Below are positions 41,766-47,149 of a DNA stretch of 64,000 nt, in pieces. Where the stretch lies: NCBI GenBank assembly GCA_042919575.1, contig CP170648.1, forward strand, positions 2,619,515 to 2,683,514, given 5' to 3'. The stretch is from Stenomitos frigidus ULC029. GTDB taxonomy: Bacteria > Cyanobacteriota > Cyanobacteriia > Leptolyngbyales > Leptolyngbyaceae. The notes under the pieces are model-generated. The model saw only the letters and a program-made list of their open reading frames with translations, was not told the DNA's origin and did not search any database. Both the position numbers and the translations under genes were made by a program. Positions within the stretch are counted from its first letter, which is position 1, and the number at the start of each line of letters is the position of its first letter.

Positions 41766-43289
41766 ATGGAAGTTCTGAGCAACAAACCTGCTCCACGATC
41801 GCAGCCGAGGCTCACTATGCTTGCAACCCCGCTTCTTCGCTCTAGAGAATTGCCAACCTTGGAATACAGCTCCACGCGCGATCGCTTCGATGCGACCTGG
41901 GAATCGCCCCTATCAACATTGCTAGGACTGGGACGGGCAGCAGGCGCAGATTTCGTCGAGTTCTTTCTAGAGCGGGTTAACTACATTAGCTGCCTCGCTG
42001 AAGACGATGCCATCACCAGCATTTCGCCACGCCTTGCCACTGGGGCTGGCATCCGCGTTTTTCGGGGTCAAACCGATTGCTACGTCAGCACCAACGACCT
42101 CACCTTCTCTGGCTTAAAAGCTGCCCTCGAAAAAGGGCTTTCCATTCTAGGCTTACAGCTGCCTTCGCCCGGAGCATATATTCCTGAAATTAATCTGGAA
42201 CCGCTGCGCGACTACGCCGTACTCCGTGGCAAAGAATCCTGGCTCTCAGCCTCTAGCTCTATGCGCGAAATGGGCGAAGTGCTGCTGGATGCCAACGCTC
42301 GTTTAAAAGAAAAAGCCACGCATGTCCAATCTCGTCGCGCTGTCTACTTCCGCGATTGGCAAGAAGTGTTGGTTGCCTCCAGCGATGGCACCTTTGCGAG
42401 AGACATTCGCCTGACGCAATCCGTTGGCTACAACCTGCTCTGTGCGGATGGTGCTAACCGTGCCTCTATTGGCGAACGTGTGGGCAACACCAGCGATCCT
42501 AACTTCCTTCGCACCTGGGACTACAACGCGACTGCCGAAAGCGTTGCTGAATCGGCTGGCAGAATGCTCTATGCCGACTATGTGGAATCGGGCACCTACC
42601 CCATCATCATGGCAAACAAGTTTGGTGGCGTGATCTTCCATGAGGCTTGCGGTCACTTGCTAGAAACCACCCAGATCGAAAAACGCACCACGCCGTTTAT
42701 GGATAAAAAAGGCGAAAAGATTGCCCACGAAAACCTGACAGCATGGGATGAAGGGCTTTCGACGGATGCGTTTGGCACGATCGACATGGACGACGAAGGA
42801 ATGCCCGCTCAACGCACACTCTTGATTGAAAAAGGCGTACTGAAAAACTTTATCGCCGATCGTGCGGGTTCCATTCGCACCGGACACCCTCGCACAGGTA
42901 GCGGTCGCCGCCAAAGCTATACTTACGCCGCCGCCTCGCGGATGCGGAACACCTACATTGCTCCTGGTGATTTCACCAACGAAGACCTGTTTGCCTCCAT
43001 TGAAAAAGGCATCTACTGCAAGAAAATGGGCGGCGGCAGCGTTGGTGCTACTGGACAATTCAACTTCTCAGTGGACGAAGCCTACCTGATTGAAAACGGC
43101 AAAATCACCAAACCCCTCAAAGGCGCAACCCTGATCGGCGAAGCCAAGGAAATCATGAACAAAATTTCCATGTGCTCCAACGATCTCGACCTCGCAGCAG
43201 GCTTCTGCGGCTCCGTCAGCGGCAGCATCTACGTCACCGTTGGACAACCCCACATCAAAGTCGATTCCATCACCGTTGGCGGACGGTAG
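41766..43289 (+). CDS. tldD: metalloprotease TldD
   Basis: HEACGH zinc motif and TldD/PmbA fold blocks. Paired with pmbA at 45809. Confidence 0.85.
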
Positions 43290-43517
43290 ACAAGGAGCGG
43301 AGTCTAAAGGGCAAGGAATAAAAAACGAGAAGCTGGAGTTTCCAACGCGAAGTCTCCAGCTTGATCGTATTTACCTGTACTGAGTTGTCTATTGGGCTGT
43401 GTTCTAGGAGATTATTCGTTAATACTCAAGTCTAAATGAGGTAAACCTAGTTTAGTGTCGGGTGCAGTCGGAGAAGGTTAGACGAGAATCTTAAAATAAG
43501 GCGTTTCGGCAGCTCCC

Positions 43518-44909
43518 ATGACATACTTACTGTTCTTCCTTTCTATTGGACTTGCTACTGCTTTGGTAGTGGTGATTAAACAACTGCAACAACGTCAGAA
43601 TGAGTATGCTTTAGCGCAGCAAAGGTTAAAAGAAGCCGATAGGAAGATACAAGATATAGACCGAAAATATGGTGGACTTCTTTCACAAGAGGAGTCAGCT
43701 AGGAAATTAGACAACCAGATTATTGTTCTCACAGATCGGCTAAAGCAGCTTAATAGACAAGCTAATACTGAAGAGCAGGAACTTGACCATAAAATCTCGA
43801 CATTAAAAATAAAGCTTCAAGAACTTGAAGAGCAAGAGTTTATTGAATCATTTGGATTTTACAAATCCAAGTATGACTTTCAGGAGTCTGGCGAGTATAA
43901 GCAATGTCTTGACAAAATCCGGTTTCAGCAAAAGCAGATGATTAAAGACCGAACTGCTGCCGTTTGCCGAACTCAATTTACTCTCAGCGATAGCCGAAAA
44001 GAAGGCAAAAAGATGACTGATAGTTATCTCCGATTAATTCTCCGAGCCTTTAATGGAGAATGTGATGCCGCTGTAGTAAAAGTTAAATATAGTAATGCTC
44101 AGACAATGGAGAATCGAATTAGAAAAGCATTCGCAGAGCTTAATAAGCTTTCTGAGATTATTCATTCTGAAATCACCTCTGATTATCTAGATCTTAAGCT
44201 TAAAGAGTTATGGCTAACTCATGAGTATCAAGAGAAAAAATACCAAGAACAAGAAGAGCAACGCACAATTCGTGAGCAGATGCGCGAAGAAGAACGAGCC
44301 TTACGCGAATTGGAGAAAGTAACACAAGAAGCTGAACGCGAGGAACGACGATACCAAGAAGCTTTAGAAAAAGCTCAAAGAGAGATTGAGAATGTTACGG
44401 GTAAGGCTCAACAAAAACTTCAAGCACAGATCGAGGAATTACAGAAGCGGGTGGCTGAAGCTGAAGCCAGTAAAGAGCGAGCTATTTCTCAAGCCCAACT
44501 AACCAAATCAGGTCATGTATATGTAATCTCAAATATTGGTTCTTTTGGTAACGATGTATACAAAATTGGTATGACACGTCGTCTTGAGCCGATGGATAGG
44601 GTTAAAGAGCTAGGTGATGCGTCTGTCCCTTTCCCGTTTGACGTTCACGCTATGATCTTTTGCGAAAATGCGCCAGAATTAGAGTCACGTTTGCATAAGC
44701 GTTTTAACTTTAAAAGAGTAAACAAAGCCAATGGCAAGAAGGAATTTTTTCGAGTTTCGTTAGAAGAAGTAGTTGAGACGGTTCGAGAAATTGATGAAGA
44801 ACTTCAGATCTGCAAATCAGAAATCAAGTTCACAAAAGCTGCTGAAGCTGCTGACTTCCGCAACACTCTAGCCCAAGAACGCGAGGTGCAGCGGGCTAAG
44901 GTGACTTGA
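43518..44909 (+). CDS. TM + coiled-coil DUF4041-like N-region fused to a T5orf172 (GIY-YIG-like / MUG113) C-terminal domain
   Basis: HVYVISNIGSFGNDVYKIGMTRRLEPMDRVKELGDASVPFPFDVHAMIF...RLHKRFNFKRVNKANGKKEFFRVSLEEV fits the T5orf172 pattern. AT-rich gene. Confidence 0.65.
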   Translation: MTYLLFFLSIGLATALVVVIKQLQQRQNEYALAQQRLKEADRKIQDIDRKYGGLLSQEESARKLDNQIIVLTDRLKQLNRQANTEEQELDHKISTLKIKLQELEEQEFIESFGFYKSKYDFQESGEYKQCLDKIRFQQKQMIKDRTAAVCRTQFTLSDSRKEGKKMTDSYLRLILRAFNGECDAAVVKVKYSNAQTMENRIRKAFAELNKLSEIIHSEITSDYLDLKLKELWLTHEYQEKKYQEQEEQRTIREQMREEERALRELEKVTQEAEREERRYQEALEKAQREIENVTGKAQQKLQAQIEELQKRVAEAEASKERAISQAQLTKSGHVYVISNIGSFGNDVYKIGMTRRLEPMDRVKELGDASVPFPFDVHAMIFCENAPELESRLHKRFNFKRVNKANGKKEFFRVSLEEVVETVREIDEELQICKSEIKFTKAAEAADFRNTLAQEREVQRAKVT

Positions 44910-44989
44910 GTGAAGTAACAGGAAATTAGCGTGATTACATTTATTGTTTGCCTCAGAAATTGAGTGGTCGCCTAAAAAAGGAGAACCTT

Positions 44990-45301
44990 ATGCCTGACAG
45001 AATCAGTATTGTGATTGAAAAAAATGATCAAGGCTATGCTGCTTACAGTCCGGAGCTTGCCAATTCTCAGGTGCAAGGCAATTCATTTGAAGACGTAACG
45101 GCGCAAATTCAGGTAAGAGCTAAAGATTACCTGGAGCAACTGCCCACTGACGAATTGCCCCAAACGAATGACAGACCTATCTGGGAGATCATTGACGATC
45201 TGGTAAAAGACATTCCTGAAGAGGAGTTACAGAAGCTACCGACCGATGGAGCAGAGCAACACGATCACTATATTTACGGCACACCCAAGCGGAAGCAATA
45301 A
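44990..45301 (+). CDS. HicB-like (UPF0150) antitoxin with a cyanobacterial antitoxin-type C-terminal tail
   Basis: SIVIEKNDQGYAAYSPEL...GNSFEDVTAQI is HicB/UPF0150-like. The tail ...EEELQKLPTDGAEQHDHYIYGTPKRKQ is common in cyanobacterial PIN-partner antitoxins. AAGGAG RBS before the ATG at 44990. Confidence 0.6.
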   Translation: MPDRISIVIEKNDQGYAAYSPELANSQVQGNSFEDVTAQIQVRAKDYLEQLPTDELPQTNDRPIWEIIDDLVKDIPEEELQKLPTDGAEQHDHYIYGTPKRKQ

Positions 45302-45717
45302 AGCTTGTTTTTGCCGATACATTCTACTGGGTTGCTGTTTTCAATAAACGAGGCGAGTGGCACGACAGAGTTCAGCAATATGCTGAAACACTCAAGCAAG
45401 TTCATCTTTTAACTACAGACGAGGTGCTTACTGAAGTGCTAACCTTCTTTGCAGCTTATGGCGCTCGAAGGCGGCACAAGACAGTTGCAAGGGTTCAGGA
45501 GATTCTTAGCAACACCAGGATTCAAGTCATCCAGCAAAGTCGAGAGTCTTTTTTGGCAGGGCTTGATCTGTATGCAAAGCGTCTAGATAAAGAATATAGC
45601 TTGACGGATTGTATTTCGATGCAGGTTATGCGGCAGCTAGGGATTACAGACGTACTTACGCGAGATCGTCACTTTACTCAGGAAGGCTTCACGATTCTCT
45701 TCAATGAAAATGCCTGA
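45301..45717 (+). CDS. PIN-domain toxin (VapC-like) lacking a canonical start codon (possible pseudogene or non-canonical initiation)
   Basis: In-frame translation from 45301 gives KLVFADTFYWVAVFNKRGEWH... (PIN N-terminus with the first Asp) through ...LTDCISMQVMRQLGITDVLTRDRHF. No ATG/GTG/TTG lies between the in-frame stop at 45217 and the first Met at 45424. Confidence 0.5.
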   Translation, partial: KLVFADTFYWVAVFNKRGEWHDRVQQYAETLKQVHLLTTDEVLTEVLTFFAAYGARRRHKTVARVQEILSNTRIQVIQQSRESFLAGLDLYAKRLDKEYSLTDCISMQVMRQLGITDVLTRDRHFTQEGFTILFNENA

Positions 45718-45808
45718 TGATCAGCATAGGCAGCCCTACCGAACCAAGCGCGATCGCTCATACTAGAGAAGAAAGCATCACGTTTTGAGAGAAGTTTGAG
45801 GAATCGCC

Positions 45809-47149
45809 GTGCCAACCATCAACGAACTAGCGACCCAGGCAAAAGAAGCTGCCGATCGCCTGGGAATCCACAAATTCGACATTTACGGCTCCACCGTGGA
45901 TGAGAGCAGCGCCAAGGTTGATCAGGGCAAGCCCGATCAGGTGAAAGCCTCAAACCGTTCCAGCGTCACTGTGCGGGTGTGGAACGATGACCAAACGATG
46001 GGCATTACCTCGACCACAGATGTTGATCCGGTTGGGTTAGCACTTGCACTGAAGACGGCGTATGAAGCCAGCTTCTTTGGCGTAAAGGAAAACGTCCCCG
46101 ATTTTAGTCCGGCAGCAACGGCTCCTCTTGCCCGTGAGTTTGCTGAAAAAGCGCCCCAGGCTCCCATTTCAGACCTGTTGGAAAAGCTGATTACCGCCGA
46201 GAAGGCATTAACTGAGGCACATCCGGCGATCGCCTCCGTCCCCTACAATGGTCTTGCTCAGCGCGACATTGATCACTTCTACCTCAACAGCGATGGGGCT
46301 TTGCGAACCGAAGCCTACTCCACCACATCGCTCTATCTCTACACCAAAACGGAAGAAGACGGCAAAAAGCCTCGTAGTGCAGGCGCATTTCGCATCAGTC
46401 GTGGCTTAGAAACCCTGGATGTTGATGGTTGCCTTAAGGAAACGGTTGAAAAAACCATTAGCCACCTTGATTACAAAAAGATTCCTACAGGCAAATATCG
46501 CGTTGTCTTTTCACCAGAGGCGTTTCTGAGTCTCTTAGGTGCGTTCTCGAATTTGTTCAACGCTCAAAGCATTCTGGACAATCAGAGCCTCTCAAAACCA
46601 GAGTCACTGGGCACTCAAATTGCTTCGCCTTTGCTGTCCGTTGCCGATGATGCACTGCATCCAGATAATGTGGCGATCGCTACCTTTGATGGTGAAGGCA
46701 CACCCACCCAACGTCTTCCTCTCATTAGCGATGGCATATTGGTCAACTTCCTTCATAGTGCTGGCACCGCTAAACGGTTCAACACCGACCCTACCGGGCA
46801 CGCCAATATGGGCGCAAAAGTGACCGTTAGCCCCCATTTCTACCACGTCTTCACCAGTAAACCTGCCGAGCAGCAGTACAGTCTAGAGACGGCTGAAAAT
46901 GTCGTTCTTATTGATGATCTGCACGCTCTCCATGCCGGAGTCAAAGCGCTTCAGGGTTCCTTCTCGCTACCGTTTGATGGCTGGCTGGTCAATCAGGGTG
47001 AGCGTACCAGCATCGAATCGGCTACCGTCGCTGGTGACTTTTTGGAGCTACTGAACGCGATCGTCTACGTGGAGCCAGAAGCCCACCTGACTCCGGGCGG
47101 TGTTTGCCCCTATGTTTGGGTCGGCGAACTGTCGATTACAGGCGAGTAG
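45809..47149 (+). CDS. pmbA: PmbA/TldE metalloprotease partner (GTG start)
   Basis: TldD/PmbA family blocks. GTG start at 45809. Canonical tldD-pmbA pairing, interrupted here by the island. Confidence 0.8.
   Translation: MPTINELATQAKEAADRLGIHKFDIYGSTVDESSAKVDQGKPDQVKASNRSSVTVRVWNDDQTMGITSTTDVDPVGLALALKTAYEASFFGVKENVPDFSPAATAPLAREFAEKAPQAPISDLLEKLITAEKALTEAHPAIASVPYNGLAQRDIDHFYLNSDGALRTEAYSTTSLYLYTKTEEDGKKPRSAGAFRISRGLETLDVDGCLKETVEKTISHLDYKKIPTGKYRVVFSPEAFLSLLGAFSNLFNAQSILDNQSLSKPESLGTQIASPLLSVADDALHPDNVAIATFDGEGTPTQRLPLISDGILVNFLHSAGTAKRFNTDPTGHANMGAKVTVSPHFYHVFTSKPAEQQYSLETAENVVLIDDLHALHAGVKALQGSFSLPFDGWLVNQGERTSIESATVAGDFLELLNAIVYVEPEAHLTPGGVCPYVWVGELSITGE

What the first reader, a model, noticed from the sequence alone, without database searches (positions are those of the whole stretch)
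44990..45717. Overlapping HicB-like antitoxin and PIN toxin with no canonical start codon
The PIN reading frame opens right after an in-frame stop at 45217 and encodes a complete-looking PIN N-terminus (KLVFADTFYW...) beginning exactly at the antitoxin's stop codon (45299-45301). There is no ATG/GTG/TTG in frame between 45220 and the first Met at 45424, which lies well inside the PIN fold. Either initiation is non-canonical or coupled (for example from ATA or AAG at the stop), or the toxin is a decaying pseudogene beside an intact antitoxin. The antitoxin is itself a hybrid. It has a HicB/UPF0150 fold plus the LPTD...DHYIYGTPK tail typical of cyanobacterial PIN-partner antitoxins, suggesting module shuffling.
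Basis: seen in the sequence. Interest (0 to 1): 0.5.

Follow-up and report, generated by a model that had tools for sequence, protein, structure and literature searches.

The report
Toxin gene with mutated start codon
This is an ordinary VapBC-type toxin-antitoxin pair in a cyanobacterium in which one G-to-A change in the 4-base stop/start overlap (ATGA to ATAA) removed the toxin's ATG but kept the antitoxin's stop, so the toxin is probably switched off and starting to decay.

Summary
The antitoxin ORF (44990-45301) ends in TAA. The PIN frame is open from 45220, and its N-terminus (KLVFADTFYW) begins at that stop. The first canonical start in frame is at 45424, but it is a GTG, not a Met codon.

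The cause is simple. The closest relatives read caATGAagctt at the junction and the window reads caATAAagctt. All 160 scorable homologous loci have ATG (144) or GTG (16) there. A single G>A at 45300 turned the toxin's ATG into ATA and the antitoxin's TGA into TAA.

On the window's lineage the toxin also gained 4 nonsynonymous changes against 1 synonymous. One is D19G, at a residue that is Asp in 133 of 134 relatives. The four catalytic acidic residues and the rest of the ORF are intact.

Best reading: a recently silenced, or at most very weakly AUA-initiated, VapC toxin beside a conserved antitoxin. GenBank already annotates the gene with the ATA as start (Stenomitos frigidus ULC029).

The "hybrid antitoxin" idea is supported, but it is a family-wide trait. 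The same C-terminal DHYIYGTPKR tail is joined to at least seven kinds of N-terminal domain. A sequencing error at 45300 cannot be excluded without reads. Interest is low.

The parts
44978..44983 (+). Shine-Dalgarno AAGGAG, 6 nt upstream of the antitoxin ATG
   Evidence: Read directly from the sequence.
44990..45301 (+). Antitoxin gene, 103 aa (GenBank XHX80709.1, 'hypothetical protein RBJ76_12485'). Residues 1-54 form a HicB-like domain (beta-beta-beta-alpha), residues 54-59 are a low-confidence linker, and residues ~60-103 are the conserved C-terminal tail PIWE..LPTDGAEQHDHYIYGTPKRKQ.
   Evidence: The family profile hits PDB 2yzt (TTHA1756) at E=1.3e-4 over residues 1-54. Twelve of 55 family members hit Pfam HicB_lk_antitox. 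The AF2 N-domain has pLDDT about 90, and the top Foldseek hits are 2yzt, HicB3 4p7d, TTHA0281 and B. pseudomallei HicB. omega=0.10 against L005.
45167..45298 (+). C-terminal tail module of the antitoxin (residues 60-103), presumed to bind and neutralise the PIN toxin
   Evidence: D86, A88, E89, Q90, H91, D92, Y94, Y96, P99 and K100 are invariant in 55 homologues. The same tail lies upstream of this PIN subfamily in 111 of 155 loci. It is joined to ParD/RHH-like, DUF2281, MazE/AbrB, AF2212-like, RHH, HicB-like and unassigned N-domains. The binding role is inferred from VapB-VapC structures, not tested.
45217..45219 (+). In-frame TGA that closes the PIN frame upstream
45298..45301 (+). Junction ATAA. 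ATA (45298-45300) sits where all relatives have the toxin start, and TAA (45299-45301) is the antitoxin stop. The derived base is A at 45300; the ancestral junction was ATGA.
   Evidence: L005 (identical over the 40 nt upstream), L001, L002 and L003 all read ATGA. Of 160 scorable homologous loci, 144 have ATG and 16 have GTG, and 126 have the NTGA form. Polarised as derived in the window by four comparators.
45298..45717 (+). VapC/PIN toxin ORF, 139 codons plus TGA, with no canonical start (GenBank XHX81246.1, annotated with M at the ATA)
   Evidence: Pfam PIN is above its cutoff. The AF2 model has pLDDT 93.8 and TM 0.84-0.89 to M. tuberculosis VapC20, 5wz4/5wzf. The canonical acidic residues are present: D7 (45316-18), E46 (45433-35), D104 (45607-09) and D123 (45664-66). 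NCBI record.
45352..45354 (+). Codon 19, GGC (Gly). A window-specific D19G change (GAC>GGC at 45353) at a near-invariant Asp in the alpha1-alpha2 loop.
   Evidence: Asp in 133 of 134 family members and Glu in 1. Aligned to an Asp of VapC20. Derived in the window. Loop position taken from the model.
45424..45426 (+). First canonical in-frame start (GTG, codon 43). Initiation here would give a 97-aa fragment lacking beta1, D7, alpha1, alpha2 and beta2.
43518..44909 (+). Context: a PD-Lambda-1-type single-gene anti-phage defence protein (DUF4041 + T5orf172) in a variable slot just upstream of the TA pair
   Evidence: Pfam. PADLOC PD-Lambda-1 at E=5e-165. The slot holds unrelated genes in L005 and L003.
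41766..43289 (+). Context: tldD metalloprotease gene, the conserved left flank
   Evidence: 92-94% nt identity to L003 and L005.
45809..47149 (+). Context: pmbA/tldE metalloprotease gene, the conserved right flank
   Evidence: Pfam PmbA_TldD domains. Same position in L002.

Best explanation
This is a VapBC-type type II toxin-antitoxin operon lodged between tldD and pmbA. The antitoxin has a HicB-like N-terminal domain and a conserved C-terminal tail. The toxin is a VapC20-like PIN nuclease.

In the ancestor the two genes overlapped by ATGA, so ribosomes finishing the antitoxin restarted on the toxin's ATG. In this genome a G>A transition at 45300 changed ATGA to ATAA. Of the nine possible single-base changes to that ATG, this is the only one that removes a canonical toxin start and still leaves the antitoxin a stop codon (TGA>TAA). 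This follows from the genetic code.

The toxin can now be initiated only at the near-cognate AUA. In E. coli that codon gives roughly 0.1-3% of AUG output. The toxin is therefore silenced or nearly so. Its lineage-specific substitutions, including D19G at a near-invariant Asp, indicate relaxed constraint. It is a young pseudogene, or at best a strongly attenuated toxin, next to an antitoxin still under purifying selection.

Shown here: the mutation, its polarity, its uniqueness among homologues, and the intact fold and catalytic residues. Inferred: loss of expression, loss of function, and the role of the tail.
For: - Junction ATAA in the window against ATGA in the four closest relatives. L005 is identical over the 40 nt upstream.
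- All 160 scorable loci have ATG or GTG at the homologous place, and none has ATA.
- No other ATG/GTG/TTG lies in frame from 45220 to 45423. Reading the translation, no CTG/ATT/ATC lies there either.
- In toxin codons 1-94 the window branch carries ATG>ATA, S15F, D19G, V38L and M65R plus 1 probable synonymous change. The L005 branch carries 0 nonsynonymous and 2 synonymous.
- D19 is Asp in 133 of 134 relatives and in M. tuberculosis VapC20.
- On the window branch the antitoxin shows 6 nonsynonymous against 11 synonymous changes. Antitoxin omega against L005 is 0.10, against 0.39 for the toxin.
- By my arithmetic from the site counts, 4 of 5 changes being nonsynonymous has P of about 0.03 at the family-typical omega of 0.13, and about 0.67 (at least 4 of 5) under neutrality.
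- AUA initiates at 0.1-3% of AUG in E. coli (bioRxiv 10.1101/063800).
- ATG>ATA reduces, but does not abolish, translation of Listeria rsbW (PMC13068326).
- In a haloarchaeal vapBC, the 4-nt overlap and the choice of toxin start codon set the toxin level (PMC13488343).
Against: - The ORF is intact over 139 codons. All four canonical PIN acidic residues are present, and codons 95-139 show no disruptive change. Function is therefore not demonstrably lost.
- The substitution counts are small. Fisher's test for toxin 4:1 against antitoxin 6:11 gives p=0.135.
- The antitoxin N-domain segment 45028-45160 is unusually diverged, possibly by recombination. That weakens it as a baseline.
- AUA combined with termination-reinitiation coupling could still deliver some toxin.
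- NCBI's pipeline accepted ATA as the start.
- No reads or second isolate were available to confirm base 45300.
Confidence: 0.6

Rival explanations
1. The toxin is still made and functional. Ribosomes terminating at the antitoxin's UAA reinitiate on the overlapping AUA. This gives a low but physiologically meaningful toxin level, so the start codon has been tuned down rather than lost.
For: The ORF and the four catalytic residues are intact, and the fold is confidently predicted. AUA is among the best non-canonical initiators and gave detectable protein in Listeria. Start-codon choice is used to hold VapC levels down in a haloarchaeal vapBC. A weak GGA(A)G lies 4-6 nt upstream. GenBank annotates the ATA as the start.
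Against: None of 160 homologous loci uses a non-canonical start, so this is not a family strategy. D19G falls at a residue conserved in 133 of 134 relatives, and the window branch has an excess of nonsynonymous changes, which argues that selection on the toxin has relaxed. An annotation pipeline's choice of start is not evidence of translation.
Confidence: 0.22
2. Base 45300 is a sequencing or assembly error in this metagenome-assembled genome. The real sequence is ATGA and the module is a normal vapBC.
For: The lesion is a single base. The source is labelled a MAG with a 6.32-Mb contig. No reads or population data could be obtained.
Against: Four further window-specific nonsynonymous changes of mixed type (C>T, A>G, G>T, T>G) lie in the same gene. 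The flanking genes align to relatives with no indels inside tldD or the TA genes, and pmbA is full length. An error would have to hit, by chance, the one base that silences the toxin while preserving the antitoxin stop.
Confidence: 0.13
3. The gene product is the 97-aa protein started at GTG 45424, as a plain ORF finder would call it.
For: It is the first canonical start in the frame.
Against: GTG 45424 is Val43 inside helix 3. The product would lack beta1, catalytic D7, alpha1, alpha2 and beta2. Every homologue starts about 42 codons earlier.
Confidence: 0.03
4. A programmed -1 frameshift near the end of the antitoxin gene makes an antitoxin-toxin fusion, so no toxin start is needed.
For: The toxin frame is -1 relative to the antitoxin frame and is open for 27 codons before the junction.
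Against: There is no X XXY YYZ slippery heptamer in ...AAG CGG AAG CAA TAA. Relatives have the same upstream sequence but a normal ATG. The toxin-frame upstream stretch (RGVTEATDRWSRATRSLYLRHTQAEA) is just the antitoxin gene read out of frame.
Confidence: 0.01

Closest known systems
Mycobacterium tuberculosis VapBC20 (VapC20, Rv2549c; PDB 5wz4/5wzf) and VapC26 (PDB 5x3t)
   Same: These are the closest solved structures to the toxin model: TM 0.84-0.89 and rmsd 1.8 A for VapC20. VapC20 is also the only PDB sequence hit, at E=7e-6. It shares the four PIN acidic residues and the Asp equivalent to D19. The gene order is the same, with the antitoxin upstream. VapC20 cleaves the 23S rRNA sarcin-ricin loop (Winther 2013, as cited in PMC13273310), so that is the best guess at the ancestral target here. 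That is inference only.
   Different: Only 23-25% identity. The antitoxin here is unrelated to VapB20, having a HicB-like N-domain and a DHYIYGTPKR tail. The toxin here has no canonical start and carries G at the conserved Asp19 position.
HicB antitoxins / UPF0150 proteins (Pfam PF15919; PDB 2yzt, 4p7d, 2dsy, 6g1c)
   Same: Residues 1-54 of the antitoxin have the same small beta-beta-beta-alpha domain.
   Different: The partner is a PIN toxin, not HicA. There is no C-terminal RHH/HTH DNA-binding domain; a PIN-associated tail takes its place. The window protein itself does not reach any Pfam threshold.
Start-codon down-mutation ATG>ATA in Listeria monocytogenes rsbW (PMC13068326)
   Same: The same single-base change at a start codon in an operon whose two products must be kept in ratio. 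Translation was experimentally reduced but remained detectable.
   Different: That change was selected in the laboratory and in clades for a regulatory benefit. Here there is no evidence of benefit, and there are signs of decay.
Natrinema gari VapBC1, GTGA overlap (PMC13488343)
   Same: A vapBC pair with a 4-nt stop/start overlap. The identity of the toxin's start codon and the overlap were shown to limit toxin level.
   Different: An archaeal system whose weaker start (GTG) is conserved across homologues. Here the ATA is unique to one genome.

Membership tests
VapC / PIN-domain toxin (Pfam PF01850) | PIN fold recognised by the family model | tested here: met
   30.3 bits against a gathering cutoff of 23.6, covering residues 5-127. 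AF2 pLDDT 93.8. Foldseek gives TM 0.84-0.89 to VapC20, and 25 PDB PIN/VapC hits have E<=1e-3.
VapC / PIN-domain toxin (Pfam PF01850) | Four conserved acidic active-site residues | tested here: met
   D7, E46, D104 and D123 are present. They are 99-100% conserved in the family and align to the acidic residues of VapC20.
VapC / PIN-domain toxin (Pfam PF01850) | Encoded directly downstream of, and overlapping, a small antitoxin gene | tested here: met
   There is a 4-nt overlap at 45298-45301. The same arrangement, in the NTGA form, occurs in 126 of 160 relatives.
VapC / PIN-domain toxin (Pfam PF01850) | Expressible gene with a canonical initiation codon | tested here: not met
   ATA sits at the homologous start, and no ATG/GTG/TTG occurs before codon 43.
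VapC / PIN-domain toxin (Pfam PF01850) | Mg2+-dependent RNase activity, growth inhibition, and neutralisation by the cognate antitoxin | not testable with these tools
   This needs toxicity and cleavage assays.
NCBIfam NF047959 TA_toxin_VapC (equivalog) | Score above the curated cutoff | tested here: not met
   20.4 bits against a cutoff of 80. It is a VapC-like PIN, but not an equivalog of that model.
HicB antitoxin (HicAB system; Pfam PF15919) | HicB-like N-terminal domain | tested here: inconclusive
   The window protein has no Pfam hit at E<=0.1. Against that, 12 of 55 family members hit PF15919 (best E 8.5e-5), the family profile hits 2yzt at 1.3e-4, and the top Foldseek hits are HicB/UPF0150 proteins with probability 0.9-1.0 but E of 0.05-0.4. 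The fold is supported, but formal family membership is not reached.
HicB antitoxin (HicAB system; Pfam PF15919) | HicA toxin as partner | tested here: not met
   The adjacent gene is a PIN/VapC.
HicB antitoxin (HicAB system; Pfam PF15919) | C-terminal RHH or HTH DNA-binding domain | tested here: not met
   Residues 60-103 form the DHYIYGTPKR tail, with two short helices and low pLDDT. No DNA-binding family is detected.
VapB-type antitoxin (defined by pairing with a PIN toxin) | Small protein upstream of the PIN gene, with an N-terminal domain plus an extended C-terminal toxin-binding region | tested here: met
   The architecture and position are conserved, and the tail is invariant at 10 positions. 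The binding itself is inferred.

The most novel reading that the evidence does not exclude
The AUA is a working initiation codon reached by termination-reinitiation at the UAA. That would make this a natural case of a toxin held at a very low level by a near-cognate start. More broadly, ATGA>ATAA would be a one-step, antitoxin-sparing 'dimmer/off switch' available to every TA pair with a 4-nt overlap. The route would be worth surveying across genomes.
Probability: 0.2. Interest if true: 0.4.

Novelty: new member of a known kind. Interest (0 to 1): 0.2.

Why it matters
It matters mainly for annotation and for reading TA inventories. This "VapC family toxin" is in GenBank as a 139-aa protein with an ATA start. 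It is most likely not expressed at normal levels, and it carries a substitution at a near-invariant residue.

It is also a clean example of how a chromosomal TA pair can lose its toxin without endangering the cell. In an ATGA overlap, G>A is the only single-base change that removes the toxin's start while keeping the antitoxin's stop.

Two secondary points follow. The conserved DHYIYGTPKR tail, attached to many different N-terminal domains, is a tidy case of antitoxin modularity, and no Pfam model hit it in any of the scans run here. The tldD-pmbA gap also looks like a small variable defence slot. None of this would surprise a TA specialist.

Tried and rejected
- **Population check for the ATA allele.** An exact/degenerate DNA-pattern scan of metagenome contigs found nothing. 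The protein-guided metagenome scan found no relative above 64% identity. No check was therefore possible.
- **Source record.** The look-up of encoding contigs had no record for the NCBI toxin protein, so the source DNA could not be read independently.
- **Promoter, terminator and operator.** The consensus scan over 44800-45900 found nothing. No inverted repeat was found upstream of the antitoxin.
- **Family scans.** Pfam and NCBIfam gave nothing for the antitoxin itself. PADLOC gave nothing for either TA protein.
- **Role of the Asp equivalent to D19 in VapC20.** Not found in the papers available. Its function stays unknown beyond its conservation and its position in the loop before helix 2.
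- **Readings considered and rejected.** Initiation at AAG has no precedent or support. The 97-aa product from GTG 45424 lacks beta1 and D7. A -1 frameshift fusion has no slippery site, and relatives have a normal ATG.
- **Relaxed selection by Fisher's test.** Only suggestive: p=0.035 if the ambiguous synonymous site is excluded and p=0.135 if it is included.

Full report
**Observation.** The coordinates and frames are as described.
- The antitoxin ORF runs from ATG 44990 to TAA 45299-45301 (103 aa) and is preceded by AAGGAG at 44978-44983.
- The PIN frame has a TGA at 45217-45219 and is then open to TGA 45715-45717.
- The ORF listing finds its first ATG/GTG/TTG at 45424.
- Translation of 45220-45717 reads ...QAEA-I-KLVFADTFYWVAV.... 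ATA lies at 45298-45300 and AAG at 45301-45303, overlapping the antitoxin stop.
- One detail is wrong in the finding. The codon at 45424 is GTG (Val43), not Met. The first in-frame ATG is at 45619.
- Pfam PIN is above threshold and aligns from profile position 2 at residue 5.
- An AlphaFold model built on 59 homologues (pLDDT 93.8, pTM 0.88) places strand beta1 at residues 3-6. The domain therefore begins at the junction.

**What happened at the junction.** The exact antitoxin sequence and the toxin are both in GenBank from Stenomitos frigidus ULC029, a MAG with a 6.32-Mb contig. The antitoxin is XHX80709.1, 'hypothetical protein'. The toxin is XHX81246.1, 'VapC family toxin', 139 aa, and begins M-KLVF. 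NCBI has therefore already called the ATA as the start.

Related loci settle the origin.
- L005 (Stenomitos sp. JTS-RE299) is 95% identical in the toxin over the 94 residues it covers and identical over the 40 nt upstream. It reads gcaATGAagctt where the window reads gcaATAAagctt.
- L001, L002 and L003 (79-83% aa identity) also read ATGA.
- Across the genome and metagenome scans, all 160 scorable loci have ATG (144) or GTG (16) within a few codons of the homologous position. 126 have the NTGA overlap form and none has ATA.
- The window's state is therefore a derived G>A at 45300. By the genetic code it is the only one of the nine single-base changes to that ATG that abolishes a canonical start and still leaves the antitoxin a stop (TGA>TAA).

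**State of the toxin.** Differences between the window and L005 were polarised with L001-L003 as outgroups.
- In toxin codons 1-94 the window branch carries ATG>ATA, S15F, D19G, V38L and M65R plus one probable synonymous change.
- The L005 branch carries no nonsynonymous and two synonymous changes.
- Position 19 is Asp in 133 of 134 non-redundant relatives and Glu in the other. It aligns to an Asp of M. tuberculosis VapC20 and lies in the loop before helix 2.
- The other three replacements fall at variable positions.
- The four canonical PIN acidic residues (D7, E46, D104, D123) are intact, and codons 95-139 show nothing disruptive.

Pairwise omega against L005 is 0.39 for the toxin and 0.10 for the antitoxin. 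Family-typical toxin omega is 0.12-0.15. The counts are small. Fisher's test gives p=0.135 for toxin 4:1 against antitoxin 6:11, and 0.035 if the ambiguous synonymous site is left out.

By my arithmetic from the site counts, at least 4 of 5 changes being nonsynonymous has probability about 0.03 at omega=0.13 and about 0.67 under neutrality. The pattern favours relaxed constraint but does not prove it. The antitoxin baseline is imperfect, because 45028-45160 is unusually diverged from both L005 and L003. That suggests a recombination tract next to the replaced upstream island.

**Expression.**
- No ATG, GTG, TTG, CTG, ATT or ATC lies in frame between the upstream stop and codon 43. ATA is therefore the only near-cognate candidate.
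- Initiation at GTG 45424 would remove beta1, D7, alpha1, alpha2 and beta2.
- In E. coli AUA initiates at roughly 0.1-3% of AUG (bioRxiv 10.1101/063800).
- In Listeria an ATG>ATA change in rsbW lowers translation but does not abolish it (PMC13068326).
- In a haloarchaeal vapBC the 4-nt overlap and the toxin's start codon set the toxin level (PMC13488343).
- The likely outcome here is a toxin silenced or reduced by about two orders of magnitude. Residual coupled initiation cannot be excluded.
- A -1 frameshift fusion is rejected. There is no slippery site, and relatives with the same upstream sequence have a normal ATG.

**The toxin family.** The closest solved structures are VapC20 (5wz4/5wzf, TM 0.84-0.89, rmsd 1.8 A) and VapC26 (5x3t). 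VapC20 is also the only PDB sequence hit. [quoted passage not shown] That target is a reasonable guess for the ancestral activity here, but it is inference only.

**The antitoxin.** Residues 1-54 form a HicB-like domain.
- The family profile hits TTHA1756 (2yzt) at E=1.3e-4.
- Twelve of 55 members hit Pfam HicB_lk_antitox.
- The model's N-domain has pLDDT about 90, and its top Foldseek hits are 2yzt, HicB3, TTHA0281 and B. pseudomallei HicB.
- The window protein itself passes no Pfam or NCBIfam threshold.

It is not a HicB antitoxin in the strict sense. Its partner is a PIN toxin, and it has no RHH/HTH domain.

The C-terminal ~45 residues (PIWE..LPxDGAxQHDHYIYGTPKR) have ten invariant positions. 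They recur upstream of this PIN subfamily in 111 of 155 loci. There they are joined to ParD/RHH-like, DUF2281, MazE/AbrB, AF2212-like, RHH, HicB-like and unassigned N-domains. HicB-like N-domains make up 11 of the 96 that were clustered.

**Context.** The pair sits between tldD (41766-43289) and pmbA (45809-47149). Immediately upstream is a PD-Lambda-1-type defence gene (43518-44909; PADLOC E=5e-165). That slot holds unrelated genes in L005 and L003, while the flanks stay 92-94% identical on the left and 87-95% on the right.

**Verdict.** This is an ordinary VapBC-type module with a start-codon lesion in the toxin. The lesion is most likely real, and the toxin is most likely silenced and beginning to decay (confidence about 0.6). 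Functional low-level AUA initiation (about 0.2) and a base-call error (about 0.13) remain open. The gene pair is already annotated, and nothing found lies outside known kinds. Interest is low.

Noticed in passing
window 43518-44909 (+): The gene just upstream of the TA pair is a PD-Lambda-1-type single-gene anti-phage defence protein (DUF4041 + T5orf172/MUG113; PADLOC E=5e-165).
   Followed up: partly
window 43289-44971; L005 789-2200; L003 1281-2691: The segment between tldD and the antitoxin is a variable slot. Three related genomes carry three unrelated cargo genes there: PD-Lambda-1 in the window, a 272-aa protein in L005 and a 282-aa protein in L003. The flanks stay 87-95% identical. It looks like a small defence/variable hotspot splitting tldD from pmbA.
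   Followed up: partly
window 45028-45160: The antitoxin N-domain segment differs from L005 at 21 of 133 nt, against 10 of 420 nt in the rest of the TA pair. It is also more diverged from L003 than L005 is. This suggests a recombination or gene-conversion tract adjoining the replaced island.
   Followed up: partly
window 45167-45298 and upstream ORFs in loci L003-L162: The ~45-aa C-terminal tail (PIWE..LPxDGAxQHDHYIYGTPKR) was hit by no Pfam model in any of the scans run here. It is attached to at least seven kinds of N-terminal domain across Cyanobacteria, Planctomycetota, Acidobacteriota and others, always next to this PIN subfamily.
   Followed up: partly
L003 (DATNQS010000533.1): A contig labelled 'Candidatus Sericytochromatia bacterium' is 87-92% identical in nucleotide sequence to this Stenomitos window across tldD, the TA pair and pmbA. 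The bin's taxonomic label looks doubtful.
   Followed up: no
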